A DNA stretch of 32,000 bases. It comes from an uncultured Tateyamaria sp. Lineage in GTDB: Bacteria; Pseudomonadota; Alphaproteobacteria; Rhodobacterales; Rhodobacteraceae. The notes under the pieces were generated by a model that did no database searches, had not been told where the DNA came from, and saw only the letters and a list, made by a program, of their open reading frames with translations. The position numbers and the translations under genes were made by a program. The stretch lies in contig NZ_CANLAG010000005.1 of assembly GCF_947488715.1 (NCBI RefSeq), positions 325,950 through 357,949 of the forward strand. Direction: 5' to 3'. Below, piece by piece: positions 1,012 to 30,917 of this stretch; the stretch's first letter is position 1, and the number at the start of each line of letters is the position of its first letter.

Positions 1012-4000
1012 GTGATGGGTGGGCACAAATCGTCAATTGCGAACGGATCAACGGATGCCGTGGTGTCGCGCGTGTTTGGCATTGCGGGCATTGTCGACTG
1101 TGATGTGACGGATGTGCCTGTGTCTGCGGGGGCGCTGCGCGTTCTGCGCGTTATGGGGCCAGGCGCGGTTGCGTTGGCCAAGTCGCCGCCTGAGGGTTTG
1201 TTGCGCCGGGATGGCGGAGAGGTTGACCTTATCTTGCCAGTCACGGATGTGCGCGATCCTTTGCCCGAGGATATGGCTCTGTGGACGGATGCGGCGCAAA
1301 ATGATGCTCTGCGCGATTTGCAAACGGCGACAGGTGCGCGGGATGTCGCGCTGACGCTGGACTGGGATGCGGCACCTGTTGCGCGCATGCGCGTTGGGGT
1401 GGCTTCTAAACCCGATGCGCCACAACCGCCGTCGGACCGCGCCGCATTCGGGCGTAAGTTGTCTGATGTGCCTGCGCTCATCGAAGGTGCGCCTTACATC
1501 GCGCCAGATGATCATCCTCGGACTTTGGCGGATGCTGTGCATCGCCTTACCGCGTCGACCAAAGAGATTGTCGCATACCGGCCTGACGGTCGGGTCCATC
1601 GGGTCACCTACGCCACGCTTGTGGATCAGGCGCGCCGGGTTCAGGCGGGATTGGCGGCTGCGGGGCTGGGCAAGGGCGACATCGTTCTGTGTGACGTCAC
1701 GGACGCCATTCAAAGCACGGCAATCGTCTGGGGCGCGACCCTCGGCGGCGTTGTGCCTGCGCTGATTTCAGTCCCTGAGGATCATGGTGACGGGCAGGCA
1801 GAAGCCTTTGGACGTATCGAAGCGGCCGCGCAGGTTTTGGGGCATCCGCCGATCATCCTTGACCAGGCGCAGATGTGCGATGAGCTGCGCGGGTTTAAGG
1901 TGCTCGATGCCACAGGCTTGGTGCAACATCCTACCGCCGCTGACCAACCCGTCGAAATTGACCCGGAAGACGACGCCGTCGTGTTGTTGACGTCGGGCAG
2001 CACGGGCGTGCCCAAAGGCGTGGTGCAATCCCATCGCGCCACCTTGGCAATGGTCGGGGCCGCCTTGCACCGTGGCGCGGGGATCGAAGCATCGCATACC
2101 GTGTTCAACTGGATGCCACGCGACCACGTGGGATCATATATGATTGCCACCATGGGTGCCTGCGTCCTGGGCGCTTCGCAGGTGCACGCCGATACCGGTT
2201 GGATCCTCGCCGATCCGACCCGTTGGCTTGATGCAATGTCTGAACACCACGCCGGGCTGACGTGGTCGCCGAATTTCTCCTTTGCCTTGATCACGCGTGC
2301 GGCGCTGGAACACCCCAAAGGCTGGGATCTTTCGGGATTGAAGGCCATTTTCAATGGCGGGGAAACCGTCACTGAGGACGTGCTGGACGCGTTCATAGAC
2401 GCCATGAAACCCTTTGGTGTGTCAGGCTCCGGGGTCATGATCCCGTCGCTCGGCATGTCCGAGACGTGCTCTGCCGTGACACTGGGACGACTGGGGCGGG
2501 CCCATGGCCCATTCACGAGCCTTGGTGGTGCTGTGCCTGGCACGCAGTTGCGCGCGGTTGATCCTGAGGATGGCGTTTTGCGCGAGGGCGAGATTGGGCG
2601 CGTCCAAGTCGCAGGCCCCCAACTGATGAGCCGTTATCACGGGCTGGATACGGCCGCGATTTCGCCGGACGGGTGGTATGACACGGGCGATCTGGGCTTT
2701 ATCGCCGACGGTGGGCTGTATCTCACCGGACGTCTCAAGGACACGGTCAACGTCAACGGAGCGACGTATTTCGCGCATGAAATAGAACAGGCTTTGGGTG
2801 ATATTCCCGGTGTCGACGATGCGGCAACCGTTGTAACAGCGGTGGACCGGGCGAATGACGGCGAAGCATTGGCTGTGTTCTTTGCCCCTGCGGATGCCAG
2901 TGGGCGAGACAATGCAACAGTTCTGGCGCAATTGGCGGCCGTGCTGCGCGACAGGCTGGCGGCACGGTTGGCCCTGACCCCAGATCTTTTGATCCCCATA
3001 GACCCGGTGGACATCCCACGCACCAGCATCGGCAAGGTGGTGCGCCGTACCCTTCAGGACCGGGTCCGCGCCGGTGACTTTGATCGCCGTATCGCGCTGT
3101 TGGAACACGCGGCAGGCGCTACAGGCGTTGTGCCTTGCGCCGTCCACCGCAAAGTCTGGGTGCCATTCGCTTCTACTCCGTCATGCACCGCACCAAACTA
3201 CCCAGCCTTAGTGTTCTGCGATGACCCGGCCGAAGCGGGTTTTCTGAGTGACATGCCAACGTCTTACATCGCGCCGCCGGACGGCGTGTGGCCCCAGCAA
3301 GATGTGCGCGGGGGTATGGTCATGTTCATTGCGCCGCGGCGCAATGCCCACGCTGCGTTAGTGCGGATTGCTGACCAGATTGCGAACCTGTCGCCAAATC
3401 ATCGGCCCGCGCATGTTTTGGTCGTGACGCAGGGCGCGGTTTGTGTGGACCCGTCGGATGCCACCCAGCCGGAACACGCTCTATTACCGGGTCTTGTGCA
3501 ATCGCTCGGCGTTCTTGCGCCCGACGTGCATTGGTCCTTGGCAGACATAAACAGGACGGACCGCGCTGGTCAGTCGACCGCCATTTCTGCGTCACGCGTG
3601 TGTCTGTCTGCCTTTCGGAACGGCTCTTGGGTCACGCCAAAATGGCAACGCGAGAGCCTAGGCACACAACCACCGAAACCGGGCCCGTGGTTGGTCACGG
3701 GTGGTTTGGGCGGTATTGGCCGTCAGGTCTGCGCAGACCTACAAAGCTGCGGTGCCGAACTGATCATCGTCGGACGTACGCCGGAAATCGGGCTGGACGA
3801 GACGCGATCGCAAGCATTGGCGAATTTCCGGGCATCAGGCCGGGTGCAATACGTGTCCTGCGATCTGGCAAAGGGGACCTTGGCCGACGTCTTGCCAAAG
3901 ATCGAAGCCATTTTGGACCGCACTATCGCGGGTGTCATCCACTTGGCGGCATGTGTGCCGGATGAACAGGCGCCTCACGCCGTGGCTGGTGACTGGGACG

Positions 4001-4881
4001 CAGCCCAAGCCGCCTTGTCGGCTGTGTTTGCGTTGGGCATAGATCGACCAGACCTTCGGGTCGTGACGGTTGGGTCGATTGTCGGCCAGGTGGGCGGTCG
4101 GCTGCAGGCCTATGCGGCCCTGAATGCTGCGCTTGCAGAGGCATCCTTGGCCGCAGGCGGCGTGCACCACGTCCGGCTGGACCTTTCGTGTTGGGAAAAT
4201 CGCGGCATGAGTGCGGGTCGGACCAGCGCGTCGTTGCTTCACGCGGATGGTTTGCTGCCGTTGCGTGATGCGACTGGCGTTGCGCTGATGCGGCATGCCA
4301 TGTGCGCGCCCAGTGGCCATTTGATCGGCGGAATGGATGTGCGCCACCCTCGGCACGGTTGGCTGGAAGAAGCGGAAACCGCGCGGCCCGTTCTGGCACC
4401 GACCGCGTGGGTCGGCGGCAATACGTCCGCAGGTGCCGTGTCTTTGCGTGATGCACGCGGGGCGGATCATCTTGTTCCCCTGCATGTCCGCGAGACGCTG
4501 CCAAAAACCGCAAGCGGCGCGGTTGATCAGGCACAGCTGTTAGCCGGGTCGGCTGAACTGGACGACGCGGCGGATGACCCCGTGGCGCAGGTGGTGGCAC
4601 TGGCCATGGCCGACACGCTCGACTTGGATCAAGCCTCTGTTTCGGCGGACTTCTTTGCCCTTGGTGGCACATCATTGTTGGCCGCACGTCTTGCGCAACA
4701 GTTGGCCGAACTGTTCTTTGTTGATCTGAGCATCGCGCATGTGTTCCGCGCGCCGCGCCCAGCACAACTGGCCAAAACCTTGCGCCGTCGTGAGGCAGAG
4801 CCGGGGCTCGTTGACGCCGCTGCCGGTGAAATTCTCAATGCCGTAAGCGCACCGGAAACCCAGACCGAGCCCGCGGAATGA
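1012..4881 (+). CDS. Assembly-line loading protein: FAAL-like acyl-AMP ligase - PKS-type ketoreductase - carrier protein (1289 aa)
   Basis: The ORF begins at GTG 1012 or ATG 1015, and the true start is uncertain. ANL-superfamily motifs: LLTSGSTGVPKG (nt 1984-2019), NWMPRDHVGS, SPNFSFAL, GMSET, YDTGDLG, and GRLKDTVNVNGATYFAHEIE, which is the KD..NG type seen in FAAL/acyl-CoA ligases rather than the NRPS GRxDxQVKIRGxRIE. The A10 motif is IPRTSIGKVVRR (3016-3048). The KR shows Rossmann VTGGLGGIG (3694-3720) and the catalytic Tyr motif QAYAALNAAL (Tyr codon 4111-4113). The carrier motif is FFALGGTSLLAARL (Ser codon 4672-4674). The stop codon overlaps the next start (ATGA). Confidence 0.85.
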   Translation: MMGGHKSSIANGSTDAVVSRVFGIAGIVDCDVTDVPVSAGALRVLRVMGPGAVALAKSPPEGLLRRDGGEVDLILPVTDVRDPLPEDMALWTDAAQNDALRDLQTATGARDVALTLDWDAAPVARMRVGVASKPDAPQPPSDRAAFGRKLSDVPALIEGAPYIAPDDHPRTLADAVHRLTASTKEIVAYRPDGRVHRVTYATLVDQARRVQAGLAAAGLGKGDIVLCDVTDAIQSTAIVWGATLGGVVPALISVPEDHGDGQAEAFGRIEAAAQVLGHPPIILDQAQMCDELRGFKVLDATGLVQHPTAADQPVEIDPEDDAVVLLTSGSTGVPKGVVQSHRATLAMVGAALHRGAGIEASHTVFNWMPRDHVGSYMIATMGACVLGASQVHADTGWILADPTRWLDAMSEHHAGLTWSPNFSFALITRAALEHPKGWDLSGLKAIFNGGETVTEDVLDAFIDAMKPFGVSGSGVMIPSLGMSETCSAVTLGRLGRAHGPFTSLGGAVPGTQLRAVDPEDGVLREGEIGRVQVAGPQLMSRYHGLDTAAISPDGWYDTGDLGFIADGGLYLTGRLKDTVNVNGATYFAHEIEQALGDIPGVDDAATVVTAVDRANDGEALAVFFAPADASGRDNATVLAQLAAVLRDRLAARLALTPDLLIPIDPVDIPRTSIGKVVRRTLQDRVRAGDFDRRIALLEHAAGATGVVPCAVHRKVWVPFASTPSCTAPNYPALVFCDDPAEAGFLSDMPTSYIAPPDGVWPQQDVRGGMVMFIAPRRNAHAALVRIADQIANLSPNHRPAHVLVVTQGAVCVDPSDATQPEHALLPGLVQSLGVLAPDVHWSLADINRTDRAGQSTAISASRVCLSAFRNGSWVTPKWQRESLGTQPPKPGPWLVTGGLGGIGRQVCADLQSCGAELIIVGRTPEIGLDETRSQALANFRASGRVQYVSCDLAKGTLADVLPKIEAILDRTIAGVIHLAACVPDEQAPHAVAGDWDAAQAALSAVFALGIDRPDLRVVTVGSIVGQVGGRLQAYAALNAALAEASLAAGGVHHVRLDLSCWENRGMSAGRTSASLLHADGLLPLRDATGVALMRHAMCAPSGHLIGGMDVRHPRHGWLEEAETARPVLAPTAWVGGNTSAGAVSLRDARGADHLVPLHVRETLPKTASGAVDQAQLLAGSAELDDAADDPVAQVVALAMADTLDLDQASVSADFFALGGTSLLAARLAQQLAELFFVDLSIAHVFRAPRPAQLAKTLRRREAEPGLVDAAAGEILNAVSAPETQTEPAE

Positions 4882-7800
4882 GCAAGCTGGGGATCATAGA
4901 CCGCACCGCATTGGCAAAGCGTTTGACACAACGCGGCTTTGGTTCAGCCCAAGACGAACCGCGTGAGCCGAGCGTTCCGCAAGACGCCACACCAACTGCC
5001 AACATGGCAGAGAAACGGTTCTGGACGCAGGAGCAGATGGACCCGACCCCGGGCTTGAACGCCTTGGGTGTTTGGCTGGATTTGAAGGTCCCGGTGACCC
5101 GGGCGGCGTTTGTTGCGGCATTGACCAAGGTGGTGCAGCGTCACGACGCCTTGCGTACCAAGTACACGGACCGCGATGGCGCGTTGCACCTTGATGTGGT
5201 GGACGATCTGCCACTGCCGCTCGGTGCGCCTTTGGGCGACACCGCGCCTGATGCCGTCCGTCAGGCTCTGTTCGACATGGGTTTGATCATGGCCCAGGAC
5301 ACGCCGTGGCAGGTTCGGCTGGCGGTGACGGGCCGGAATGGCACAGATGAAGTCGTCAATGGCGTCTTGATCGGCGTGCATCACGCCATCATGGACTGGG
5401 GCGGTTTGGCCGTCTTTGTGCAAGAACTCGATCAGGCGCTGGATGGTGCGGAAACACCGGCGTCGCCTGTGCATCCTCAGGGATTTGAACATAAATTTCA
5501 AAGGTCTCGAGCCGCCCATCGTGCCGAAGCCGAGGCCTACTGGCAGGCGCGCCTAGATGGGTGCCCCGCCGTTTTGTCCATCCCCGCAGCGCAAAGCGGG
5601 TCCGAACCGGCCCCCGGCTATCACACAAGAACCTTAACACTGGGCGCCGAACAGTCGCAGCGTCTGCGTGCACGGGCTGCGGCACTTGGTGCGACACCGT
5701 TTTCTCTTTTGCTGTCCGCCTATGGCTTGGTGCTGACCGGACTGTCCAGCACGCCAGAGGTGGTTTTCGGCACTGCCGTGTCGCATCGTGACCAACAAGG
5801 CGGAGAGTGCATCATCGCATGCCTGTCAGACCTCGTGCCGTTGCGGCTGGCCCTGGACAGTTCCGACACGGTGGACAGCACACTGCGCGGCGTTCACGGC
5901 CAGATGGCGCAGGATATCGAGCACGCGCATCTAGGCTTTGCCGACATTGTTGCCGCATCGGGTGTGGCGCGTCACCGGGACAAGGCCCCGCTGGTACAGG
6001 CGATATTCAATCTCTTGGAGCCTATGCCCGAGGGCCAGCACCTGACGGCGCAACCGGTTTACAGTCAGGTTGCCCGCGCGGACATCGCTTTGGACGCCCA
6101 AGATCACGGTGACCTTTCGCTGCGCCTTGAGTTGCGCGCCGCAATGTTCACGCCTGCGCTGGCGGACCAAATTGCGCGGTGTTTGGACAGTGCGGTTGCG
6201 CATGTTCTGGCGGATGGGTCGCAGCCGCTTGGTGCCGTTGCTTGGCCTGTGGCCCCACCTGACATACAGCCATCTCTGGCCCCGCCAAAGACCCATTTGG
6301 GGGAATGGTTGTTTGACCGCATGGCGGCGCAGCCGGGGCAAACCGTAAAGGACGGTGACCAAGTCACAACATTTGCGGAGATCTGCAAAAGTGCGGAGGC
6401 TTTGGCGGCGGCGCTGATCGATGCAGGCGTCGCACCGGGCGACGCAGTTGCCGTGCATCTGCCGCGCGGGATTGCCCAAGTGACAGCCACGCTTGCCTGT
6501 TTGCGTGCGGGTGGGGTCTTGGTGCTGATTGACCCCGATCACCCGGTTCAACGACGTGCAGATGTTGTCGCTCAGTCGCAGGCCCGTGTGATGATTGGCG
6601 AAGGCATCGATGCTGATCTGACATCGCTGGTCGATGTGATGGTTGCGCCCACTGCCAAGGGGGCAGGCGCATGTCCAACTGTGTGGCCGCACCGGGACCC
6701 GCAAGACATCGCGTACATCGTGTTCACCTCCGGTTCGACCGGGCGACCCAAGGGGGCATGCGGGACCCATCAGGGCCTGTTGAACCGTCTGATCTGGATG
6801 GAGGGCGCGTATCCCTGGGCATCGGACGACGTGGCGTGCCTCAAAACCTCTGCGGCTTTTGTCGATGCGCTGACCGAGATGCTCGGACCGTTGGCGGCGG
6901 GTGTCGCCAGTGTTGTTGCGGGGGCGGATGTGGCAAAGGATCCGCATGCCCTGGCGCAGTTCATTGGCACAAATCACGTGACGCGGATTGTTGCAGTGCC
7001 AAGCCTGATTTCGGTTTGGACAGATCATGTGCCGGGTATTGCGACCTTTTTGTCCCCATTGCGGTTGTGTGTGTCGAGCGGAGAGCCGTTGACCGCGCGG
7101 GTTCTGCGCAAAATGGCAGAGATCGCGCCGAAATGCCGGGTGCTGAACCTCTATGGCGCATCCGAGATGTCGGGGGATGTGACGCATCACTTGCCCACAG
7201 GGACAAGTGACGTGATCCCCATTGGACGCGCGATGCCGGGCAATCGTCTGGCTGTTGTCGACCCGAATGGACATACTTTGCCCACTGGGTTCCCCGGCGA
7301 ATTGGTCGTGTCGGGCGTTGCTTTGGCGGACGGGTATCGTGGCGCGACCGCGGCGGACCAGGCACGGTTTGCTCCCATGGCCGTCTTTGATGGCGCTGTG
7401 GGCTATTCCACTGGGGACCGCGCTTATCTGGATGGGTCGGGTGACGTGGTCTTGCTGGGCCGCAAGGATGATCAGGTCAAGATTGACGGCGTCCGGGTTG
7501 AATTGGCAGAGGTGGCACGGGTGATCGAACATGCGCCCGGTGTGGCGCAATGCGTGGTGCTGGCCGCTGGAGCCGAGGGCGGCTCACCCCACTTGACCGC
7601 CTTTGTGACTTTGGCGGATGCAGCAACAGACACGCCTAACGAGGGTGCGCTGCGTCAGTTTGCACGGGCACGTTTGCTTGGGTCGGTTGTTCCTGGGCGT
7701 ATCCTTGTCCTCGAAACGATGCCGACGGGTCCTACGGGCAAAATCGACCGCCGGGCACTTGAGGCCAATGCAGCGCAGCGCGGTGCAGAAATTGCGTCAG

Positions 7801-10800
7801 AACCGTCCGAGCATACCGCGCAATCACAGCAGATTGCTGAGATATGGGCGGATGTTCTGGATGTCGCTTTGCCCACACCTGAGGCGGATTTTTTCGCATT
7901 GGGTGGCACGTCCTTGCGCGCGGTTGTCGTCATGTCGCGCCTGAGTGCGGCCATTGGTCGATATCTTGAGCCGGGCTTGATCTTTGATCACCCGACCCCT
8001 GCGGCGCTGGCCGATGCCGTGATACAGGGCGAGACGGCGCAAGGTGACGGACCGCCTTTGCCGGCGGTGACAGTCCGCGCCCCTGCGGAACGCAGTCCTA
8101 TGACGGCCAATCAGGCGTGGTTGTGGCGCCTGCATCGGGATGCACCGCAAAGCACAGCTTACAATCTGGCTGCCGGATATCGGCTGGGTGCTCATGTGGA
8201 TTTGGACGCATTGGCTGATGCTGTGGCCGCTGTGTTTGAGCGGCACACCAGCCTGCGCACCCGTGTCCACACAGAAGGAGCGGAGGCCTGGACGCAGTGC
8301 GCATCTTCCCCCGAACCCGACTGCGCTTTGATCCGCGAAAGCGATGACGAGACGCCGGATGAGGCGCTGATACAGCGCGCGGCCACACGGCCCTTTGACC
8401 TGCAACAAGAGAACCCGGCCCGGTTTGCGATCTATCCACGGAAGGCGGGGTATCTGCTGGTCATCTCGGTGCATCACATGGCAAGCGATGGGTGGTCCGC
8501 ACAGGTGATCGTGGATGATCTGTCCCGATGCTACGCACAAAAGGTCGCGGGCCGCGACATCGCAGACGCGCCGGTCCCGCAGTCGTCGGATGTCGCGCAT
8601 TGGCAAAACGAAGCACGCCCCGCCCTGCGCGACACACTTGATGCGTATGTTGCAGGCTTGGCAGAGGCCGCGGGACCGACGCTGGCCCCGGCGAACCCAA
8701 TGGCACCACGCGGAGGACTCGCCGAACGCGTGACCGTGAAACTGGATGCCGCAACGCTTGGCGATTTGGTGGCACAAGGTCCAATTGGAACAACCACCCT
8801 TGGCGTTTTGTGTGCAGCGTGGGCGCTCGTCTTACGTGGCTTTGGTACGGATACCCCTTTGCTGATGGGCATTCCACGGGCCGGGCGCAGCGCACCTGGG
8901 CTGGAAAAGGCCGTGGGCTTTTTCGCAAACACGGTTCTGATGCCGCTTGACCCTGATCCGGCTGAGCCTTGGTCATCTGTATTGCAACAAACTCAGGACA
9001 AGCTGCGGGCGACCGCCCCCTGCGACATGATCCCCTTGGCGTGGGTGCAGGATGCCGGTGCAGGCTGGCGTGCTGATACGTCTGAGATCCGCACATTGGT
9101 GGTGCCCGAAGACGGATTTGATTGGAAATTGGATCTGCCTGGTGCCGACGTGCAATGGGCCGGACAGTCGCGCCCGACAGAAGCACGAGCAGACGTCGCG
9201 GTGGTGCTGACCCGTGCGGGTGCTGGACTGAGCGTCGAAATCGAATATGACACCGGACGCATTTCGGCGATGTTTGGGCAGAGCTTGGCGAATGCGCTGG
9301 CCTGCATTCTGAAGGGTGCGGCGCGCAATCCGCGAGCCGGTGGCGCACCTTTGACCGAGGACGAGACCACACCCGCGACGCTCCAGAATGACACTGAAAG
9401 TTCCGCTTTCACGGGGCAACGCATAGATGCACAGCTGGCGGATTGGGCGCATGCCGCACCTGATGCAGTGGCTGCCGTGGGTCCAGAGGGAGCCATCACC
9501 GCCGCTGAATTGGAAGCGCGTGTTGCGACTTATGCGACACGGCTGTCTGCGGCGGGTCTCAGTTGTGACATGGCCGCCGCAGTTGATTGCCAACGCGGGC
9601 TGTCGTGGTTGGTCGCCATTCTGTCGATCTGGCGCGTTGGCGCACGGGTCGTCATTCTGGACCCCGCATGGCCGCATGCGCAACGCGCAGACATTTGCGA
9701 CGATGCCAACGTCGCCATGGTTCTGGACGCAGGCACAGTGTCCTTCACAGCCCCATTTCCAACTGCAAAGGGCCAAGCCCTGCGAGGATTGGCGGACATC
9801 GCGGCGCTGACGTACACGTCTGGCACAACCGGGCGACCCAAGGGCGTTGCCTTGGCCCATGACGCATTATTGCGCTTGGGTGATGCACTGCGAACTGCGC
9901 TGGATGTACGACCGGGCGACCGTATCTTGCAGGCCGCAGCCCCTGCATTTGACGTCGCATTGTCGGATATCGCGATGGCGTTGACAGCCCGCGCGGCTTT
10001 GGTTGTTTTGCCGCAGGACGATGTATTGGCCGGACGAAACCTGACCAATGCGCTCGAACGCGAGCAGATCACGCATATGCAGGTGGCAGCCACTGTGCTG
10101 AGCAACACCGCTGCACAACCCTTGCCGCACCTCCGGGCGGTTGCCGTCGGGGGAGAGCCTTGTCCACCTGCCACACTCGATGCGTGGTCCAAAGGGCGGG
10201 CGCTCTTTGTTGCCTATGGACCCGCCGAAGCAACGGTAACGGCGACGGTTATCCGGTATGATGCACAGATGCCTCAGGCTGCCTTGGGTTTCCCCATTGC
10301 GGGCAACAACCTCGCCGTTCTGGACCGCTTTGATCAACCGCTGCCGCCCGGTGCGGTTGGTGATATTGTGATCGGCGGGCGCCAGATCGCGCGCTATCTG
10401 GGCCATGCTGCAGCTGGCGCGAATGGGTTCGGCACCACGGATGTATTTGGAGAAACGCAGCCCGCGCTGCGCACGGGTGATCGCGGGTGGATGACGGCGG
10501 ACGGTTGCCTGGTGTTTGCAGGCCGCACCGACCGTCAGCTCAAGATACGGGGCACGCGCGTAGAACCACGCGCTATCGAAGTTGCGCTGGATGCCCACCC
10601 GGAAGTGCAACGCGCTTTGGTCGGCCATACCGGCGATGGGCCAGAGCGGATGTTGGTCGCTTGGGTTACGCTGCGCAGCGGGATCATTGACGCCAAATCC
10701 GAGGCGGTGCTGCGCGACTGGCTGTCTGCGCGTTTGCCCAAGGCGTCGGTGCCGTCGCGGATTGCCGTGTTGGAGGCCTGGCCGCTGACGCCAAACGGCA

Positions 10801-11138
10801 AGGTTGATATGGCGGCGCTGCCTGCACCTTGGGACGCTCCGGTTGACGCGGCCGTCGACGCAACCGCCATAGCGCCCGAAACCTTGGCCGAGGTCGAACG
10901 CCTCGTTGCCGCCCTTTGGCGCGACATCCTCAAGCGTCAGGACATCCCATCCGGGCGCAGTTTCTATGACTGCGGCGGGGACTCGTTGTCCATCGTGGCG
11001 TTGCAGGCCCGGCTTGAGGCCGCACTGGGCGTCGACATTCCGGTGGGTGAAATGTTTGCGCATCCAACCCTGTCCGACATGTCCGAAATGATTTTTTCCA
11101 AACGATTTCAAAAGAAACTTGTGGAGTTCGAAATATGA
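4878..11138 (+). CDS. Non-ribosomal peptide synthetase, two modules: C-A-PCP-C-A-PCP (2086 aa)
   Basis: C1 His motif HHAIMDWGG (5379-5405). A1 motifs: FTSGSTGRPKG (6723-6755), NLYGASE, YSTGDRAY, GRKDDQVKIDGVRVELAEV and PTGKIDRRAL (Lys codon 7740). PCP1 FFALGGTS (Ser codon 7911-7913). C2 HHMASDGWS (8472-8498). A2 motifs: YTSGTTGRPKG (9813-9845), AYGPAE, LRTGDRG, GRTDRQLKIRGTRVEP and TPNGKVDMAAL (Lys codon 10800). PCP2 FYDCGGDSLS (Ser codon 10983-10985). ATGA overlaps at both ends. Confidence 0.95.
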   Translation: MSKLGIIDRTALAKRLTQRGFGSAQDEPREPSVPQDATPTANMAEKRFWTQEQMDPTPGLNALGVWLDLKVPVTRAAFVAALTKVVQRHDALRTKYTDRDGALHLDVVDDLPLPLGAPLGDTAPDAVRQALFDMGLIMAQDTPWQVRLAVTGRNGTDEVVNGVLIGVHHAIMDWGGLAVFVQELDQALDGAETPASPVHPQGFEHKFQRSRAAHRAEAEAYWQARLDGCPAVLSIPAAQSGSEPAPGYHTRTLTLGAEQSQRLRARAAALGATPFSLLLSAYGLVLTGLSSTPEVVFGTAVSHRDQQGGECIIACLSDLVPLRLALDSSDTVDSTLRGVHGQMAQDIEHAHLGFADIVAASGVARHRDKAPLVQAIFNLLEPMPEGQHLTAQPVYSQVARADIALDAQDHGDLSLRLELRAAMFTPALADQIARCLDSAVAHVLADGSQPLGAVAWPVAPPDIQPSLAPPKTHLGEWLFDRMAAQPGQTVKDGDQVTTFAEICKSAEALAAALIDAGVAPGDAVAVHLPRGIAQVTATLACLRAGGVLVLIDPDHPVQRRADVVAQSQARVMIGEGIDADLTSLVDVMVAPTAKGAGACPTVWPHRDPQDIAYIVFTSGSTGRPKGACGTHQGLLNRLIWMEGAYPWASDDVACLKTSAAFVDALTEMLGPLAAGVASVVAGADVAKDPHALAQFIGTNHVTRIVAVPSLISVWTDHVPGIATFLSPLRLCVSSGEPLTARVLRKMAEIAPKCRVLNLYGASEMSGDVTHHLPTGTSDVIPIGRAMPGNRLAVVDPNGHTLPTGFPGELVVSGVALADGYRGATAADQARFAPMAVFDGAVGYSTGDRAYLDGSGDVVLLGRKDDQVKIDGVRVELAEVARVIEHAPGVAQCVVLAAGAEGGSPHLTAFVTLADAATDTPNEGALRQFARARLLGSVVPGRILVLETMPTGPTGKIDRRALEANAAQRGAEIASEPSEHTAQSQQIAEIWADVLDVALPTPEADFFALGGTSLRAVVVMSRLSAAIGRYLEPGLIFDHPTPAALADAVIQGETAQGDGPPLPAVTVRAPAERSPMTANQAWLWRLHRDAPQSTAYNLAAGYRLGAHVDLDALADAVAAVFERHTSLRTRVHTEGAEAWTQCASSPEPDCALIRESDDETPDEALIQRAATRPFDLQQENPARFAIYPRKAGYLLVISVHHMASDGWSAQVIVDDLSRCYAQKVAGRDIADAPVPQSSDVAHWQNEARPALRDTLDAYVAGLAEAAGPTLAPANPMAPRGGLAERVTVKLDAATLGDLVAQGPIGTTTLGVLCAAWALVLRGFGTDTPLLMGIPRAGRSAPGLEKAVGFFANTVLMPLDPDPAEPWSSVLQQTQDKLRATAPCDMIPLAWVQDAGAGWRADTSEIRTLVVPEDGFDWKLDLPGADVQWAGQSRPTEARADVAVVLTRAGAGLSVEIEYDTGRISAMFGQSLANALACILKGAARNPRAGGAPLTEDETTPATLQNDTESSAFTGQRIDAQLADWAHAAPDAVAAVGPEGAITAAELEARVATYATRLSAAGLSCDMAAAVDCQRGLSWLVAILSIWRVGARVVILDPAWPHAQRADICDDANVAMVLDAGTVSFTAPFPTAKGQALRGLADIAALTYTSGTTGRPKGVALAHDALLRLGDALRTALDVRPGDRILQAAAPAFDVALSDIAMALTARAALVVLPQDDVLAGRNLTNALEREQITHMQVAATVLSNTAAQPLPHLRAVAVGGEPCPPATLDAWSKGRALFVAYGPAEATVTATVIRYDAQMPQAALGFPIAGNNLAVLDRFDQPLPPGAVGDIVIGGRQIARYLGHAAAGANGFGTTDVFGETQPALRTGDRGWMTADGCLVFAGRTDRQLKIRGTRVEPRAIEVALDAHPEVQRALVGHTGDGPERMLVAWVTLRSGIIDAKSEAVLRDWLSARLPKASVPSRIAVLEAWPLTPNGKVDMAALPAPWDAPVDAAVDATAIAPETLAEVERLVAALWRDILKRQDIPSGRSFYDCGGDSLSIVALQARLEAALGVDIPVGEMFAHPTLSDMSEMIFSKRFQKKLVEFEI

Positions 11139-14100
11139 GACCCTTGTCAGACATGCTCCACGAACTTGCCGGTCTGGGTATCGAACTCGAGGCCAACGCG
11201 GACAAGCTGCGCATTCGTGGACCGGCCAGCGCGCTTGGCCCCGCTTTGCGGGAGGAGCTAAAAGCGCGCAAGGCGGAACTTCTTGCACATCTGACGGCAC
11301 CTGCCAGTCCGGTGTCTGTCCCACTTTTGCCAAACCAGCGGCGGTTGTGGTTCATCGACAAACTGACGGATGCGGCCACGGGTTTTGCGTTGCAAGCGGC
11401 ATTTGTTTTGCCGCGCCAATACACAGTAGCGGAGTGGCAAGACGCGCTGGACCAACTGTGCGCGCATCACCCCGTTCTTGACACACAGCTGATCGAAGAG
11501 GGCGACGCGCCGTTTTTGCAGGTCAGGCCACAAGGTCCGCGCGCAGAGGTCCACGTTGATCGATTGCCGGACGATGCTCCGGACTTCGATGCACTCCGCC
11601 CGACGAATGCCGGACTGTTCCGATGCGCGGTCTGGCCAAGAGAAACGGGTCAAAGCCTAGTTGTTCTGTCCTTGCATCACATGATCTCGGATCGGCAATC
11701 CATGTCGACGGTCATGCAGGATTTGTTGCACCTGCTGGATGGACAACCCCTGACTAAGGCCGGGCGCGACTTTCTTGACATAATGGCACAGGACGGGAGC
11801 GCAGCCAGGCCGCACGCGGCAGAGGGTCTGGCGTACTGGACCCAGACACTGTCCGATGCGCCTGCGGACCTGACTTTGCCCTACGATCACGCCCGACCGG
11901 ACCGCCGGGGTGTCCAAGGTGCCGTGCACCGCTTTGTCCTGTCTGACGCCGCCAATCTGGGGCCGCTTGCCCAGCGCAACAACGCGACAGCTTTTGCAAC
12001 ATATCTGGCCGTTTATGCACAGTTATTGTCCCAATGGAGCGGCCAGACCGATCTGGTCATCGGATGCCCTGTGTCCGGTCGGTATATGCCGGGCACCGAG
12101 ACCTCTGTTGGGTATTTTGTGAACACCGTTGCGTTGCGTCTGAACCTCGATGCGACGGATATCGCTTCGGTCATCGAACGTGCGCGAACAGTGGTCATGG
12201 GAGCCATGGAACATCAGGACGTGCCATTTGACCATGTGGTCAGCGCGCTGTCCCCCGACCGTCATTTGAACCGGAACCCGTTGTTTCAGGCGATGTTCGT
12301 GTTGCAGCCTCCGAGCGGCAATGCGCCGGTGTTTGCAGGTGAGCCAGTCGATATTTTGCCGGCACCTCCGCTGGCCCCAGATGTCGACATCAGCCTGATG
12401 CTGGAAGAAACCGCGCAGGGCTATGCTGGATACTTGGAATACGACCCGGACCTGTTCGACCCTGAAACCATCGCCCTGTTCGCCCAGCAGTTCGAGGCGT
12501 TGTGCCAGACCTATGCAGGCAACAGCCAGACCGCCGAACAAAGGCTGGCGCATTGGCAAGGGCCAGATGCGCCGCGTCCCCGCGGGGACATGTGGTCCGT
12601 TCTCGGTTCTGCGTTGAAGGAATTGCCCGCTGATCATTTGGTTTTGGAAGACCCCGACGGTGCCGTCACGAAAAGCGAGGTTTTGGCACAGGCCAATGCT
12701 GTGGCGGCGGGCTTGATGGCGCAAGGGGTCGGGTCTGCGGCTCCCGTGGGCATCAGCCTGGCGCGGACGCGCGATCGGGCTGCCGCCATGTTGGGTGTTT
12801 GGAAGGCGGGCGCGACGGTCGTGTTCCTGCCTGTGATCGGTCAGGACAAGAGCGCGCAACAGGTGTTTGCGGACCGCGTTTCCAAAGGTGCCATTGGTCA
12901 TGTGATCTGTGACACCGCGAGTTCGGATGACGCGGGCACCACGGCGACCCTCTTGCCGTTCTCCTCGTTTTCCTCTGTTGAGGAAATATCCCGCGAGGGG
13001 CTCGCAGATGGCCCTGCCTATCTGTGTTTCACATCCGGCACGACCGGAACGGCCAAGGCGGTTGCGGTTGGGCATGACAGTCTGATCAACCACATGATGG
13101 GTATTGCCGAGCAGTTCGCTCTGACACCCGCAGACCGGGTGTTGCAGTTCGCGCCAACCTCTTTCGACATGGTGTTCGAGGACATGTTGCCTGCGCTCAT
13201 GTTGGGCGCGTCGCTGATCGTGCCCGAAGCAGATGCGTTGGCGGATATGGACCGGTTTCAAGCCATGATCTCGGACGCGGGTATCACGGTGGCCAACCTG
13301 CCTGCGCCTTTCTGGCATGCGTGGGTGCATGAGCTGGACGCGACGCAGACGACTGCCCCAGCTGCACTCCGGCTGGTCATCACAGGCAGCGATGTTGTCC
13401 ATGGAGAGGCCGCGTGGGTGTGGCGTTCGCGCTGCCCGGAAACGAGCCTGATGAGCGGGTACGGCCTGACGGAATCCACGATTACGGCAATGCTGCACAC
13501 ACCAGCGGCGGATCCATCAGACATCGGTCTTGGTGCCTTGCCGCTTGGCGTGCCGCTGCCCAACGTTGCTGTGTCGGTGGTTGGCCCGGATGGAGAGCCG
13601 GTGCCCACGATGGTTGTCGGAGAGATTGCTATTTCCGGCGCTGCTGTTGCGATGGGTTATGTGGGCGCACAGTCTGATCACCGGTTTCGGCAGGTCGGGG
13701 ACGAGCCGCAGTTTATGACGGGCGATTTGGGGCGTATGCGCCGCGACGGCCATCTGGAATTCCTCGGTCGGCGCGACCAACAGATCAAGATACGGGGTGT
13801 CCGGGTCGAACCCAGCGCGGTCGAGGCTGTTGTGATGCGTCTCGCCACAGTATCTGAGGCCGCGGTGGTCCCGCGCCCCTCACCCACAGGGCAATGGGGC
13901 CTGGCCGCATATATCGTGGGCGACCAAACCGCTGATCACTATACCGAAGAACTGCGCCACGCCCTGCCAGGGGCCATGGTGCCGCAGACCGTTGTGACTG
14001 TTCCTGCGTTGCCGCGCACGGATGCGGGCAAGATTGATCGCCGCGCATTGGCACGTGCGCCGATCGAGATCACCGCGACCCCGACCCGCGCGCCAACTGC

Positions 14101-17100
14101 GCAAGAGGCCCGCCTCGCCGCCATTTTTGCCGACGTGTTGGGGCAAAAACGAGTGGGTCCGGATGACAATTTCTTTGCCCTTGGTGGTGATTCCATCACC
14201 AGCCTGCAAATCGTCGCCCGTGCACGGCGCGCTGGGTTTGCCCTGACCGCAGCACAAGTGTTCGAGCATCAGACCGTGGCGGCATTGGCGGCACATGTGA
14301 ATGATCTGCCGACACAGGATGTGGGCGAAACATCGGGGCCGATCCCTGCAACACCAATCATGGCGTGGTTCGCCACCCAGTTCGATCAGCCATGGAAGCA
14401 CTTCAATCAGTCCGTCATGCTTGCCATGCCAGCCGATCTCAACACGGATGCGTTGCGCGCCGCGCTGCAATCGGTCGCTGACGCGCACCCGATCTTTGCG
14501 CTGCGGGTCGACCCGGACGCTGCACAGCCGTTTTCCATATCTGAAACCGCCGAAGCGCCCGCGTTTTTCACGCACACCACCGAAGACGGGCAGGCAGATG
14601 CACTGGACAGGGTGCAGGCCAGTTTAGACCCCACCGAAGGCCGCAACATCGCGGCGCTGTGGTTGCCGCACCAAAACCGGTTGATGGTCACCATCCACCA
14701 TCTGTGCATCGACGTGTTGTCATGGGATGTTTTGTTGCGCGACCTCGAAACGGCCTATGACGCCGCCTGCGCGGAGACCCATACTCAGATCACGCCTGCG
14801 GGCGCCTCATTCCGAACATGGGCAGAGCGATTGAACACCTTTGCTAAGGACAGTGGCGTGTCCGGCACGGTTGCGCATTTCATGCAGAGCCTTGGCGGCG
14901 CGACCGACCCAATCCTTGGTGCGCCCGTTGCGGCAGGACAGGACCGTGACATCACATCCTTCCGACTGACACTGCCAGCGGGCGTTACATCCGACATCCT
15001 GCGGCACGCGGCGGTGGCCTATGAAACGCGGGCGGACGAGGCGCTGTTGGTTGCGCTGCTTATGGCTTTGGACAAACGTGGATCGAGCGGCGTGCGCGTT
15101 GACCTTGAGCGCAATGGCCGCACGTCGCCTTTTGCGGACCTCGACCTCGCTGATACAATTGGTTGGTTCACGAGCGTCATGCCGCTGCGCCTTATGCCTG
15201 GCGACGATGTCGCGGCGCTGGCCCAACAAGTGCGCCGCGCGACGCAGGACAGCCCTCATGACGGTCTGGGTTTTGGCCTTGCGCGCTATTGCGGTACGTC
15301 CGCCACCCGCACGGCGTTGGCCAGTCTGCCGGAGGCGGATGTCCTGTTGAACTACGTGGGCGTCCTGACAGGTTGGGAAGATGCCCCATTTCGACCCGTC
15401 GATGCCCCGTGCGGGACAACCATCGCGCTGGACACAGAACGCAGCCATGTCGTCGAAATCAACGCGGGCGTTGTTGCGGGGCAGATGCGGATCGAAATGA
15501 TTGCACCATCCTCTGCAGGCGCTGAGGCCGAAGGTTTGGCACAGGCTCTGGAAACAGCGATTAGCGATCTGGCGTCTCAGGCGCGGCAGGCGCGGTTTGG
15601 CGCGGACATGGGTGACAACGTCGAGGACGTGGCACCCGCCACCCCATTGCAGCACCGTATCCTGCTGCATTCGATGCGCCGTCCGGACACTTACTTTGAC
15701 CAGTTGCGGTTCACGCTGGACGGCCCCCTCGACGTGGATGCGATGCAGCGATCCTGGGACATGTTGGTGCACAGACATAAATCTTTGCGCACTAATTTCG
15801 GCTTTGCCGGTGATGACAGCCCGCTTCAGATCGTGCGGCAGTCCCTGGATATGCAGTGGCATCATCTGGACTGGCGTGACGTGGCACCAGGCACCATCGC
15901 GCGCCTGTTGACGGATGTCATGCAGGTGGACCGCGCGGTCGGGTTCGACATTGAAAACGGCCCATTGATGCGCATGCATCTGATCCGCCGATCCGACACC
16001 CAGTACGATTGGATTTGGAGCGCGCACCATCTGGTGTTGGACGGATGGTCCGTGTCCGTGGTGATTGAGGAATGGCAGAGCATCTATGCAGCACTGGTGC
16101 GTGGTGACACGCCACAGCTGGCCCCGGCGGCAGACCCTTCGGATTATGCGGCGTGGCTTGGCCAGACGGATAGCGGTGCGGCACGTGCGTTCTGGGCAGA
16201 GCATCTGGCAGGTGCCGAAGCAACCCTGATCGCTAAAGAACAAGACCGAGCCACCGCCGCTGCGACCCAAGCGCCCGGAACAGACCGTATTGACCTGTCG
16301 CCCGAGGTGGAACAGCAGCTTGGCGCGCTGGCCCGTGATCTGGGCACAACCGTTGGCGTAATTGCTCAAGCCGCCTGGGCGCTGGTGCTCCGCCGGTATG
16401 GCCACAGCGGCGCGGTACTGTTTGGTCTGACCGTATCGAACCGGCCGCCTGACATTGCCGGCGCGGATCGCATGGTGGGCATGATGATCAACACGCTGCC
16501 TGTGCGTGTGGATCTGAGTGGTGCGGACACTCCACGGGGGGTGATGGCACGCATGAGCGCACAAGCCCGCGCCCGTGCGCCCTGGTCCGCGCTGTCGCTT
16601 GATAACATTTTGAGCGCGGGCGGGTTTGGCGACACGCTGCCGTTCGACACGATGATGTTGGTTCAAAACTATCCGCAGCCAGAGACCCTGTCCGCCGGGG
16701 ACGTGACCGTTGGGCTGTCAGAAGTCGCAGAACGGACCGATCTGCCGCTGACACTGGTGGTGCAATCAGGTGACGATCCTTGCCTGATGGCCGTGTGGGA
16801 TCGCGACCGGTTGGGCGATGCGCAAGTACAGTCGATGCTGGGTCATTGGCACCGCGTGATGACGGCTTTTCTCGCGGATGCCGATCAAACGCTGGATGGC
16901 ATTTCGATCTACTCAGATGCCGAACTGGCCGCGCGCGTTGAACTGGCACAAGGTTCAAGTGGCGACGCCGAAACGCCACGCGCCGTCGAGGCTGTAGCGC
17001 ATTGGGCGCGCATCCTGCCGGATCAGACCGCGCTGGTTGCCGATGATGGCGTACTGAGTTACCGCGCCCTTGATGCAGCCGTTGCGGCGTTGGCGGCGCG

Positions 17101-24669: not shown

Positions 24670-24807
24670 GCCCTGCGCCTGACGGGGACTTGATGCAAAC
24701 GTGATTGGGACGTGAGCCACTGGCTGTGCAAGGTGCTGGCTATATGTCTGCGCCTGGCCTTGGGCTTTGCGGTGGCATCTGACAACACGCTGCCGAAAGG
24801 GTCCGTC

Positions 24808-30551: not shown

Positions 30552-30644
30552 GCCGTGCGCGCCTTTTGCAAGCCGACATGATTCCTGGCAAATCAATCGG
30601 CACCATCACATGCGCAGGACGGGTCCCGCGCGTTGGTGCCTCCT

Positions 30645-30790
30645 CTGTCCTATGTGCCTGAGATCATTATCCCTTCGGCGGGTGCATCTGCACCACTCTC
30701 CAGAGTATTGGTGGCGTGCCATTGGTCCTTGGGCCTGAGAGTTTCCGAGGCAGTTGCTCCTTCGGCACCAGCGAACTGGTTCTCCCAACG
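30645..30790 (-). promoter_or_regulatory. Tandem glycine riboswitch (two aptamers) in the gcvT leader
   Basis: The minus-strand RNA reads as follows. Aptamer 1 (30788->30724): GGGAGAaccaguucgcugguGCCGAAGGAGCAAcugccucggaaaCUCUCAGGCccaaGGACC. Aptamer 2 (30706->30645): CUCUGGAGAGuggugcagaugCACCCGCCGAAGGGAUAAugaucuCAGGCacauaGGACAG. Both carry the conserved GGAGA / CCGAAGG / CUCAGGC / GGAC cores of the glycine aptamer, and the element sits upstream of gcvT as expected. Confidence 0.9.
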
Positions 30791-30871
30791 TCACGCATGT
30801 CTGTTTCGTATCGGAAACGCGCGGCGCGTGGCAAGACATTTGTGACGACGCCTGATCACAAGTTTCAAAGG

Positions 30872-30917
30872 CCGCAAAACAGAACCACCACCAGATGCCT
30901 TTGCATGTGGTGGTGGT
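30872..30917 (-). terminator. Putative rho-independent terminator downstream of the peroxiredoxin-like gene
   Basis: A perfect 10-bp stem, ACCACCACCA (30884-30893) pairing with TGGTGGTGGT (30908-30917), encloses a 14-nt loop. On the minus strand the hairpin is followed by UCUGUUUUG. It lies 40 nt after the stop at 30958 and before the gcvT promoter and riboswitch. Confidence 0.45.

What the first reader, a model, noticed from the sequence alone, without database searches (positions are those of the whole stretch)
1504..4881. Unusual loading protein: a complete FAAL-like ligase, then a PKS-type KR, then a degenerate second A10-like motif, then the carrier
The ligase is complete, including its own A10 with lysine (IPRTSIGKVVRR, 3016-3048), before the KR begins. 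After the KR C-terminal region, and just before the carrier, comes HLVPLHVRETLPKTASGAVDQAQLL (4468-4542). This reads like the A9/A10 region of an adenylation C-terminal subdomain (..YMVP....LP.T.SGKVDR..L), but the catalytic Lys is replaced by Ala and the Arg by Gln. In known keto-acid-loading A-KR-PCP modules (cereulide/valinomycin type), the KR is inserted inside the A-domain C-terminal subdomain, so an A10 follows the KR. One explanation is a chimera: a FAAL-type ligase grafted onto the KR, A-sub remnant and PCP of such a module. The biochemistry of an AL-KR-CP starter is not obvious. Options include reduction of a keto-acyl starter to a hydroxy-acyl starter, or an inactive or trans-acting KR. 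I do not know a characterised FAAL-KR-ACP loading protein.
Basis: partly seen in the sequence, partly recalled or inferred. Interest (0 to 1): 0.65.

Follow-up and report, generated by a model that had tools for sequence, protein, structure and literature searches.

The report
Keto-acid loading module with split pseudo-Asub
This gene encodes the starter module of a peptide-polyketide assembly line whose odd-looking layout (complete ligase, ketoreductase, leftover ligase fragment, carrier) is the already solved, standard layout of modules that load a keto acid and reduce it to a hydroxy acid, so it is an ordinary new member of a known kind.

Summary
ORF 1015-4881 (+), 1288 aa, has a complete ANL ligase with its own A10 lysine, a PKS-type KR, a degenerate A10-like stretch and a PCP-type carrier. 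The stretch is real Asub homology (hhalign 95.9%, E 5e-9), not a plain linker.

It is not unusual. The best sequence and fold match is PDB 6ULW, the "adenylation, ketoreductase and pseudo Asub" structure of the keto-acid-selecting NRPS module StsA (phmmer 2e-93; Foldseek 4e-74 over about 1,220 columns).

These hold a vestigial Asub-like fold and the N-terminal half of the split pseudo-Asub. Spliced to the post-KR piece, that half matches a whole canonical Asub (97.2%, E 4e-11).

The ligase belongs to the keto-acid-ligase/McyG clade, not the classical FAALs.

Most likely function: load an alpha-keto acid, reduce it to an alpha-hydroxyacyl starter, and pass it to the downstream NRPS-PKS.

One caveat: the KR lacks the canonical catalytic Lys (Ala997). 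An 18-member clade shares this loss, mostly together with Arg1029 and Arg1069.

Closest relative: Tateyamaria (94%). Verdict: new member of a known kind, low interest.

The parts
1015..4881 (+). Whole gene: stand-alone initiation module, 1288 aa from ATG 1015 (a GTG lies at 1012). The stop overlaps the ORF2 start (ATGA at 4878-4881).
   Evidence: The 94%-identical database protein P0001 starts MGGHKSS, matching ATG 1015.
1048..1269 (+). N1, residues 12-85: a small vestigial Asub-like fold (alpha-beta-beta-alpha-beta). It is probably the remnant of a lost upstream A domain ('Ax').
   Evidence: AF2 pLDDT 72-93 with H12-21, E28-36, E39-47, H51-56, E72-76. hhalign against canonical Asub gives 84%, E 7e-6, Asub columns 4-42. 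Homologues keep an LP.t.dG.vD A10-like motif here. There are weak Pfam AMP-binding_C hits on the homologues' N-termini.
1270..1398 (+). N2, residues 86-128: N-terminal half of the split pseudo-Asub (helix 92-106 plus strand 111-117).
   Evidence: AF2 pLDDT about 88-93. The spliced N2 + post-KR profile matches the whole canonical Asub (hhalign 97.2%, E 3.7e-11, 81 columns) and the Asub of solved A domains such as PA1221 433-510 (E 3.5e-7).
1510..3084 (+). Keto-acid-type ANL ligase (KAL; antiSMASH 'CAL'), residues 166-690: Acore 166-585 and its own Asub 586-690. Key features: A3 TSGSTGVPK, Val372 at the Asp235-equivalent position, Gly480-Met481, A10 Lys674.
   Evidence: Pfam and NCBIfam. PDB StsA 6ULW/6ULX and McyG are the top hits. 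Motif comparison. T670, G673 and K674 are invariant.
3112..4344 (+). PKS-type ketoreductase, residues 700-1110: structural subdomain about 700-885 and catalytic subdomain 886-1110. TGGLGGIG, Ser1021, Tyr1033 and Asn1037 are present. The canonical catalytic Lys is Ala997 (nt 4003-4005).
   Evidence: Pfam KR. Alignment to StsA. Column analysis.
4372..4554 (+). C1, residues 1120-1180: C-terminal half of the split pseudo-Asub. It includes the degenerate A9/A10 stretch HLVPLHVRETLPKTASGAVDQAQLL, with Lys replaced by Ala and Arg by Gln.
   Evidence: hhalign 95.9%, E 5.3e-9 against Asub columns 31-88. It aligns to StsA 1194-1306 and to A10-PCP regions of solved NRPSs. AF2 strands 1127-1134, 1140-1145, 1151-1159, pLDDT 87-93.
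4582..4794 (+). Thiolation (PCP-type) carrier domain, residues about 1190-1260. The phosphopantetheine Ser1220 lies in FFALGGTSL.
   Evidence: Pfam PP-binding. PCP structures are the top hits for this segment.
4795..4878 (+). C-terminal tail, residues 1261-1288 (PGLVDAAAGEILNAV...). It is conserved in near homologues and may be a docking element towards ORF2.
   Evidence: Alignment. The docking role is an inference only.
4878..23056 (+). Downstream assembly line that would receive the starter. ORF2 (4878-11138) is C-A-T-C-A-T. ORF3 (11135-23056) has a TubC_N dock, then three Condensation-family stretches with two A and two T (order inferred as C-A-T-C/E-C-A-T), then KS-AT-KR-ACP.
   Evidence: Pfam. 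Motif positions.

Best explanation
ORF1 is the stand-alone initiation module of a hybrid NRPS-PKS assembly line in a Tateyamaria-like roseobacter. It belongs to the keto-acid-selecting module family typified by StsA, CesA, Vlm1 and AerA.

Its layout is: a vestigial Asub (N1), the N-half of the pseudo-Asub (N2), a keto-acid ligase with an intact Acore and Asub, a PKS-type KR, the C-half of the pseudo-Asub (C1), and a T domain. The 'second degenerate A10' is the C-terminal half of a non-catalytic split pseudo-Asub. That domain packs against the KR and links it to the carrier. Its other half lies upstream of the ligase.

Proposed mechanism:
1. The ligase adenylates an alpha-keto acid. This is inferred from Val at the Asp235 position, the Gly-Met motif, and pocket residues resembling those of the ketoisocaproate enzyme StsA, which point to a mid-sized aliphatic keto acid.
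2. The ligase thioesterifies the keto acid onto Ser1220 of the T domain.
3. The KR reduces the 2-keto group with NADPH to give a 2-hydroxyacyl-S-T.
4. The first C domain of ORF2 condenses it with an amino acid, giving an N-terminal 2-hydroxyacyl cap.

Shown here: domain homology, the full-length fold match, and the split pseudo-Asub homology. Inferred: substrate class, KR activity and hand-off.
For: - PDB phmmer: 6ULW_A (StsA A-KR-pseudoAsub) is the top hit, E 2.2e-93, with stretches covering residues 162-721 and 879-1258.
- AF2 model of residues 1-1200: pLDDT 84.9, pTM 0.71.
- Foldseek: all four 6ULW chains come first, E 3.7e-74, TM 0.60-0.64, 1213-1238 aligned columns. The next hits (McyG, FAALs) cover only the ligase.
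- Post-KR profile versus Asub: 95.9%, E 5.3e-9.
- Spliced N2+C1 profile versus the whole Asub: 97.2%, E 3.7e-11. It also hits the Asub of solved A domains.
- Ligase motifs: Val at the Asp235-equivalent position and GM at the YGPTE-equivalent position, as in StsA (criteria from PMC13643306 and PMC10143770).
- The 21 best ligase-only BLAST hits all come from KR-linked proteins: motif scan, Pfam for P0009.
- The KR has the NADPH motif, Ser, Tyr and Asn.
- ORF2 starts with a C domain and is translationally coupled to ORF1.
- Literature: an intact A, then a KR, then a pseudo-A subdomain (PMC8341866). The pseudo-Asub is completed by N-terminal elements, and KALs are annotated as 'CAL' (PMC13643306). 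AerA is an A-KR-carrier starter protein that loads phenylpyruvate (PMC10143770).
Against: - The canonical catalytic Lys of the KR is Ala997, and no Lys lies within about 25 residues. Reduction is therefore not assured.
- The ligase scores about as well against McyG, which activates non-keto aryl acids, as against the StsA ligase. McyG-type ligases also carry the GM motif. Keto-acid selectivity therefore rests mainly on the KR/pseudo-Asub context.
- No biochemical data and no known product exist.
Confidence: 0.7

Rival explanations
1. The architecture is the known one, but the KR is catalytically dead. It and the pseudo-Asub would then be purely structural, and the module would deliver an unreduced 2-ketoacyl starter, or a non-keto acyl starter as in McyG.
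For: - The catalytic Lys is replaced by Ala997. The loss is shared by 18 KR domains of one clade, while 301 Tyr-bearing KR domains keep Lys and 15 have Arg.
- Within that clade the YxxxN Asn is also variable (N, H, Q or S).
- The ligase is equally close to McyG.
Against: - The NADPH-binding motif TGGLGGIG, the following GR, Ser1021 and Tyr1033 are conserved throughout the Lys-less clade, across distant taxa.
- The KR catalytic subdomain is conserved at a level (58% to P0002) between that of the ligase (69-71%) and the KR structural subdomain (38%).
- The clade carries two clade-specific arginines, R1029 (14 of 18) and R1069 (13 of 18), which may compensate for the missing Lys.
Confidence: 0.2
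2. One reading: an unusual, unprecedented chimera in which a FAAL was recently grafted onto the KR, A-sub remnant and PCP of a cereulide-type module, producing a new kind of FAAL-KR-ACP loader with unclear chemistry.
For: - The Asub remnant is real.
- NCBIfam's best, sub-threshold hits are fatty-acid ligase/FAAL families.
- Family-wide recombination of a KAL into a C-Ax...KR-T frame has been proposed (PMC13643306).
Against: - The same layout is found in StsA itself and in dozens of homologues from Proteobacteria, Actinobacteria, Firmicutes and Cyanobacteria.
- The ligase motifs are of KAL/McyG type, not FAAL type.
- The nearest ligase relatives are all already KR-linked. Any graft is therefore ancient and family-wide, not specific to this gene.
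Confidence: 0.05
3. The post-KR stretch is an ordinary KR-carrier linker with a chance resemblance to A10. Alternatively, the module is a classical interrupted A domain whose first ligase lacks a working C-terminal subdomain.
For: Single-sequence Pfam scans of the query's post-KR and N-terminal pieces find nothing.
Against: - Profile-profile and profile-PDB matches to Asub.
- Single-sequence alignment into the A10-PCP regions of solved NRPSs.
- The ligase has its own AMP-binding_C domain with an invariant A10 Lys.
Confidence: 0.02

Closest known systems
StsA initiation module of Bacillus stratosphericus (PDB 6ULW, 6ULX, 6ULY; Alonzo et al. 2020), and its homologues, the first modules of cereulide synthetase (CesA1, CesB1) and valinomycin synthetase (Vlm1)
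   Same: - Same order of parts: an N-terminal element, an intact keto-acid ligase with its own Asub, a PKS-type KR, a pseudo-Asub remnant and a T domain.
- Full-length fold match (TM about 0.63 over about 1,220 columns).
- A hydrophobic residue at the Asp235 position and the GM motif.
- Similar size: CesA1 is residues 1-1323 and CesB1 residues 1-1354 (PMC4455996).
   Different: - Only 23% identity.
- This protein is a stand-alone polypeptide in a proteobacterial NRPS-PKS hybrid, not the first module of an iterative depsipeptide synthetase.
- Its N-terminus is about 70 residues longer and carries an extra vestigial Asub-like fold (N1).
- The KR lacks the catalytic Lys that StsA has (EAKVYG).
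AerA, the aeruginosin loading protein (A-KR-carrier)
   Same: It is a stand-alone starter protein that loads an aryl-pyruvate, reduces it to the 2-hydroxy acid, and passes it to a C-A-T protein (PMC10143770). This is the same role proposed here.
   Different: It is cyanobacterial and uses an aromatic keto acid.
Dol15D-M2 and CrpD-M2 elongation modules (C-Ax-KAL-KR-T and C-KAL-KR-T; PMC13643306)
   Same: The KAL is embedded between an older A-domain remnant and KR-T. Partial Ax-like regions are retained upstream of the KAL, which matches N1 here. The pseudo-Asub is completed by an upstream helical element, which matches N2 here.
   Different: Those are elongation modules with a C domain and use the hydroxyl for ester bonds. 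Here there is no C domain, and only the Asub part of Ax survives.
McyG loading A-PCP (PDB 4R0M)
   Same: The ligase clade is nearly equidistant (286 bits). It shares the NWMxxxHV and GMSET motifs.
   Different: McyG has no KR and no pseudo-Asub. It activates phenylpropanoid-type acids and feeds a KS.
Fatty acyl-AMP ligases (FadD32, E. coli/Legionella FAAL 3PBK, olefin synthase FAAL 7R7E)
   Same: ANL fold, loading of a carrier protein without CoA, and the next-best structural hits for the ligase part.
   Different: Much weaker sequence match (about 105-108 bits against 252-317). Their diagnostic motifs (WLPLYHDMGL, YGLAE) are absent from this protein.

Membership tests
Keto-acid-selecting NRPS module (KAL-KR-split pseudoAsub-T; StsA/Ces/Vlm/AerA type) | An intact ANL ligase (Acore plus its own Asub with the A10 Lys) placed before the KR | tested here: met
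   Pfam AMP-binding 187-543 and AMP-binding_C 590-675. K674 is invariant in 40 homologues. It aligns to StsA 90-682.
Keto-acid-selecting NRPS module (KAL-KR-split pseudoAsub-T; StsA/Ces/Vlm/AerA type) | A hydrophobic residue in place of the amino-group-binding Asp235 of amino-acid A domains | tested here: met
   Val372 (DHVGS) aligns with the D of FDxS in canonical A domains and with Ile in StsA. The criterion comes from PMC13643306 and PMC10143770.
Keto-acid-selecting NRPS module (KAL-KR-split pseudoAsub-T; StsA/Ces/Vlm/AerA type) | [quoted passage not shown] | tested here: met
   LGMSET at residues 479-484 (numbered from the ATG at 1015) matches FGMSE in StsA. The motif is not exclusive: McyG-type ligases also carry it.
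Keto-acid-selecting NRPS module (KAL-KR-split pseudoAsub-T; StsA/Ces/Vlm/AerA type) | A PKS-type KR (structural plus catalytic subdomains) with an NADPH-binding motif, placed directly after the ligase | tested here: met
   Pfam KR 893-1061. TGGLGGIG is present, and G896 and G899 are invariant. It aligns to StsA 895-1190. AF2 models a Rossmann-like alternating strand-helix pattern.
Keto-acid-selecting NRPS module (KAL-KR-split pseudoAsub-T; StsA/Ces/Vlm/AerA type) | A split, non-catalytic pseudo-Asub formed by a segment upstream of the ligase and a segment between the KR and the T domain | tested here: met
   C1 versus Asub: 95.9%. Spliced N2+C1 versus the whole Asub: 97.2%, E 3.7e-11, with PDB Asub hits. 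The full-length Foldseek match to 6ULW includes both ends. Physical contact between N2 and C1 was not measured because no coordinates were available.
Keto-acid-selecting NRPS module (KAL-KR-split pseudoAsub-T; StsA/Ces/Vlm/AerA type) | A carrier (T) domain with the phosphopantetheine Ser immediately after the pseudo-Asub | tested here: met
   Pfam PP-binding 1197-1256 with FFALGGTSL.
Keto-acid-selecting NRPS module (KAL-KR-split pseudoAsub-T; StsA/Ces/Vlm/AerA type) | Selective adenylation of a 2-keto acid and its NADPH-dependent reduction on the carrier | not testable with these tools
   This needs adenylation and loading assays and intact-protein mass spectrometry.
Catalytically canonical PKS-type KR (Lys-Ser-Tyr-Asn) | Catalytic Lys on helix alpha4 (the AKxxG motif) | tested here: not met
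   The position is Ala997. 305 of 340 aligned KR domains have Lys and 15 have Arg. The query's clade has A, T, L or S.
Catalytically canonical PKS-type KR (Lys-Ser-Tyr-Asn) | Catalytic Ser, Tyr and the YxxxN Asn | tested here: met
   Ser1021, Tyr1033 and Asn1037 are present.
Classical fatty acyl-AMP ligase (FAAL) | FAAL-type core motifs (WLPLYHDMGL and YGLAE) and best similarity to FAALs | tested here: not met
   The query has NWMPRDHVG and LGMSET. FAAL structures score about 105-108 bits, against 252-317 bits for StsA and McyG. All NCBIfam FAAL hits fall far below their cut-offs.
Interrupted A domain (auxiliary domain inserted inside one catalytic A domain, as with M domains) | A single A domain whose only A9/A10 follows the inserted domain | tested here: not met
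   The ligase has its own complete Asub with the A10 Lys before the KR. The literature says the same for this family (PMC8341866).

The most novel reading that the evidence does not exclude
The query belongs to a proteobacterial clade of stand-alone KAL-KR-T starter modules. At 50% clustering the clade has 18 representatives, including Tateyamaria, Sulfitobacter, Pusillimonas and Pollutimonas.

In this clade the KR has lost the canonical catalytic Lys, which is Ala, Thr, Leu or Ser instead. At the same time the clade has gained two clade-specific arginines: Arg1029, four residues before the catalytic Tyr, and Arg1069.

There are two possible readings. Either the catalytic base-assisting residue has migrated, as in the known Lys/Asn swap between classical SDRs and PKS KRs. 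Or the KR is a non-reducing scaffold and these lines start with a 2-ketoacyl cap.
Probability: 0.3. Interest if true: 0.45.

Novelty: new member of a known kind. Interest (0 to 1): 0.2.

Why it matters
The 'second A10' is not an anomaly.

In practice this flags an uncharacterised roseobacter (Tateyamaria-like) NRPS-PKS cluster. It probably makes a peptide-polyketide capped with a 2-hydroxyacyl group and containing a beta-hydroxy amino acid.

The only feature with some wider interest is the Lys-less KR clade. If it is active, it would show another way of arranging the SDR catalytic residues. If it is inactive, it would show that the KR/pseudo-Asub unit can be kept purely as scaffolding.

Tried and rejected
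- phmmer of the N-terminal 170 residues against PDB found nothing.
- Single-sequence Pfam scans of the query's N-terminal, post-KR and spliced pieces found no AMP-binding_C domain. Only some homologues gave weak hits. Profile-profile comparison was needed.
- The primary paper (Alonzo et al. 2020) is not in the held library. Its content is therefore cited through PMC8341866, PMC13643306, PMC10143770 and the PDB entry titles.
- A literature search for Tateyamaria NRPS/PKS gave nothing useful.
- A review of NRPS flexibility (PMC8150014) added nothing on the pseudo-Asub.
- AF2 coordinates are not exposed, so I could not measure contacts between N2 and C1 or locate Arg1029 and Arg1069 relative to the nicotinamide pocket.
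- Per-domain identity could not discriminate an active KR from a structural one.
- A Stachelhaus-like pocket code was derived by hand from the alignments: query V-G-M-F-I-N-S-S-A-K against StsA I-G-V-F-M-N-A-S-A-K. It is only a rough hint of an aliphatic keto acid, not a prediction.
- Rejected: a classical FAAL, an ordinary linker, and a true interrupted A domain (see the membership tests).

Full report
**What is there.** The finding lies in one ORF, 1012 (GTG) / 1015 (ATG) to 4881 on the + strand. I number residues from the ATG, which gives 1288 aa. The 94%-identical database protein also starts there. Pfam finds AMP-binding 187-543, AMP-binding_C 590-675, KR 893-1061 and PP-binding 1197-1256.

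**Is the post-KR 'A10-like' stretch real?** Yes.
- As a single sequence, residues about 1151-1260 align with the A9/A10-linker-PCP region of many solved NRPSs (5U89, LgrA, PvdL, EntF, SrfA-C, PA1221) and with StsA 1194-1306.
- A profile of this region from 24 homologues matches a profile of 18 canonical Asub domains, from the LVAYV strand to the GKxDR motif, at 95.9% probability and E 5.3e-9.
- The second criterion, a first ligase lacking a C-terminal subdomain, also fails. The ligase has its own AMP-binding_C domain, and T670, G673 and K674 are invariant in 40 homologues.

**What it is.**
- The best PDB sequence hit for the whole protein is 6ULW_A (E 2.2e-93). Three stretches cover the ligase and the KR-to-carrier region.
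- An AlphaFold2 model of residues 1-1200, built on a 40-sequence alignment, has pLDDT 84.9 and pTM 0.71.
- Foldseek against the PDB returns all four chains of 6ULW first. That entry is titled 'Adenylation, ketoreductase, and pseudo Asub multidomain structure of a keto acid-selecting NRPS module'. The scores are E 3.7e-74, TM 0.60-0.64 and 1213-1238 aligned columns, which is the whole length. McyG and the FAALs follow but cover only the ligase.
- The literature states the point directly. [quoted passage not shown] 2020).

**The missing half.** The N-terminal 128 residues are confidently folded (pLDDT 72-93). The elements are H12-21, E28-36, E39-47, H51-56 and E72-76, then H92-106 and E111-117.
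- Residues 12-85 (N1) match the first part of a canonical Asub (hhalign 84%, E 7e-6). In many homologues the equivalent region is still a recognisable complete Asub, with an LP.t.dG.vD A10-like motif and weak Pfam AMP-binding_C hits. I read N1 as the vestige of an upstream 'Ax' domain. This agrees with the continuum of Ax reduction described in PMC13643306.
- Residues 86-128 (N2: a helix plus a strand) supply exactly the elements that the post-KR piece (C1) lacks.
- Splicing N2 to C1 in 20 homologues gives a profile that matches the whole canonical Asub (columns 3-88 of 90) at 97.2%, E 3.7e-11, over 81 columns. The same profile hits the Asub of solved A domains such as PA1221 433-510, CmnG, CytC1 and LgrA.
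- In Streptomyces homologues with short N-termini the split is plain to the eye: IAxAVRAVPGVxEAAVV upstream, and LVAY...PVPVRL..V..IPrdxdGxvD downstream.

**The ligase.** NCBIfam's best hits are fatty-acid ligase/FAAL families, all far below their cut-offs. In the PDB, StsA (317 bits for the module, 252 for the ligase alone) and McyG (286 bits) far exceed the FAALs (about 105-108 bits).
- The diagnostic motifs are NWMPRDHVG and LGMSET, as in KR-linked and McyG-type ligases. Classical FAAL-type sequences have WLPLYHDMGL and YGLAE.
- Val372 aligns with Asp235 of amino-acid A domains and with Ile in StsA. Gly480-Met481 aligns with the Gly-Pro of YGPTE. Both are the published keto-acid features (PMC13643306, PMC10143770).
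- The GM motif is shared by McyG-type ligases, so on its own it does not prove keto-acid selectivity.
- With the ligase domain alone as query, the 21 best hits all come from KR-linked proteins: motif scan, Pfam for P0009.

**The KR.** TGGLGGIG, the following GR, Ser1021, Tyr1033 and Asn1037 (YxxxN) are present. The canonical PKS-type catalytic Lys (AKxxG on helix alpha4; EAKVYG in StsA) is Ala997, and there is no Lys within about 25 residues.
- Among 340 KR domains aligned to a family HMM, 305 have Lys, 15 have Arg, and one clade (the query, P0001-P0010, P0121-P0124, P0129, P0130) has Ala, Thr, Leu or Ser.
- Among the 18 Lys-less, Tyr-bearing domains, 14 have Arg at position 1029 (four residues before the Tyr) and 13 have Arg at 1069. 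Among the 301 Lys-bearing domains these positions are mostly A/P/V and E/A/Y respectively.
- This is one clade, so the counts are not independent events.
- The conserved cofactor motif argues for an active KR, but that is an inference.

**Context.**
- ORF1, ORF2 and ORF3 are joined by ATGA start/stop overlaps.
- ORF2 is C-A-T-C-A-T.
- ORF3 starts with a TubC_N docking domain. It has three Condensation-family stretches with two A and two T, which I order as C-A-T-C/E-C-A-T, followed by KS-AT-KR-ACP.
- A CmlA-like di-iron beta-hydroxylase gene follows, with its true start probably at ATG 23053, and then a DUF3179 gene.
- No thioesterase is seen in the window.
- The closest protein is from an uncultured Tateyamaria (94%). 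Tateyamaria sp. SN3-11 has a 59% orthologue followed by a 2094-aa ORF.
- The same AMP-binding + KR + PP-binding layout recurs in Sulfitobacter, Pusillimonas, Pollutimonas, Paenibacillus and Streptomyces (stand-alone proteins) and in Streptomyces C-(Ax)-KAL-KR-T proteins.

**Mechanism.** The most likely course is:
1. adenylation of a 2-keto acid;
2. loading onto Ser1220;
3. NADPH-dependent reduction to a 2-hydroxyacyl thioester;
4. condensation by the first C domain of ORF2, giving an N-terminal 2-hydroxyacyl cap, as with AerA in aeruginosin synthesis (PMC10143770).

A hand-derived pocket code resembles that of the ketoisocaproate enzyme StsA, which hints at an aliphatic keto acid. That hint is weak. 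My confidence in the architecture and family assignment is about 0.95. My confidence in the full mechanism, including reduction, is about 0.7, because of Ala997.

**Verdict.** This is a new, uncharacterised member of a known and structurally solved module type, so interest is low. The Lys-less KR clade is the only lead worth a bench test.

Noticed in passing
window 4003-4005 (Ala997); also 4099-4101 (Arg1029) and 4219-4221 (Arg1069): The KR lacks the canonical catalytic Lys (the AKxxG motif), which is Ala here. The loss is shared by an 18-member clade of stand-alone homologues, most of which carry Arg at positions 1029 and 1069. In contrast, 301 other Tyr-bearing KR domains keep the Lys.
   Followed up: partly
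window 1048-1269: This extra N-terminal Asub-like mini-domain (N1) lies upstream of the split pseudo-Asub half. It looks like the last remnant of a lost upstream A domain, even though this initiation module has no C domain.
   Followed up: partly
window 30713-30797 (-): A glycine riboswitch aptamer (Rfam RF00504, 55.4 bits, E 5e-9) lies upstream of gcvT (29427-30596, -) and gcvP (26200-29037, -). The 156-aa ORF at 30606-31076 (-), which overlaps it and has no Pfam hit, is probably not a gene.
   Followed up: partly
window 4878-4881, 11135-11138, 23053-23056: ATGA stop/start overlaps link ORF1 to ORF2, ORF2 to ORF3, and ORF3 to the CmlA-like hydroxylase. The listed start of the hydroxylase at 22960 is probably wrong, with ATG 23053 the likely true start. 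The overlaps suggest one translationally coupled operon.
   Followed up: no
window about 5380-5400 (ORF2 residue about 168); ORF3 11135-23056: The first C domain of ORF2, which would accept the hydroxyacyl starter, has HHAIMDW instead of HHxxxDG. ORF3 has three Condensation-family stretches but only one canonical HHxxxDG, at residue 1631.
   Followed up: no
window 22000-26187: ORF3 ends with KR-ACP, and no thioesterase or reductase release domain is visible in the window. A CmlA-like di-iron beta-hydroxylase gene and a DUF3179 gene follow. The release step is unexplained.
   Followed up: no
window 4795-4878; ORF3 N-terminus 11135-11300: ORF1 has a conserved C-terminal tail (PGLxDAAAxEIL...) and ORF3 has a TubC_N docking domain. 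These may be inter-protein docking elements, and their pairing with ORF2 was not examined.
   Followed up: no
homologue P0003 (49% identity): This close homologue has LGTSE where the query and StsA have the Gly-Met 'keto-recognition' motif. The motif is therefore not strictly conserved even within the near clade.
   Followed up: no
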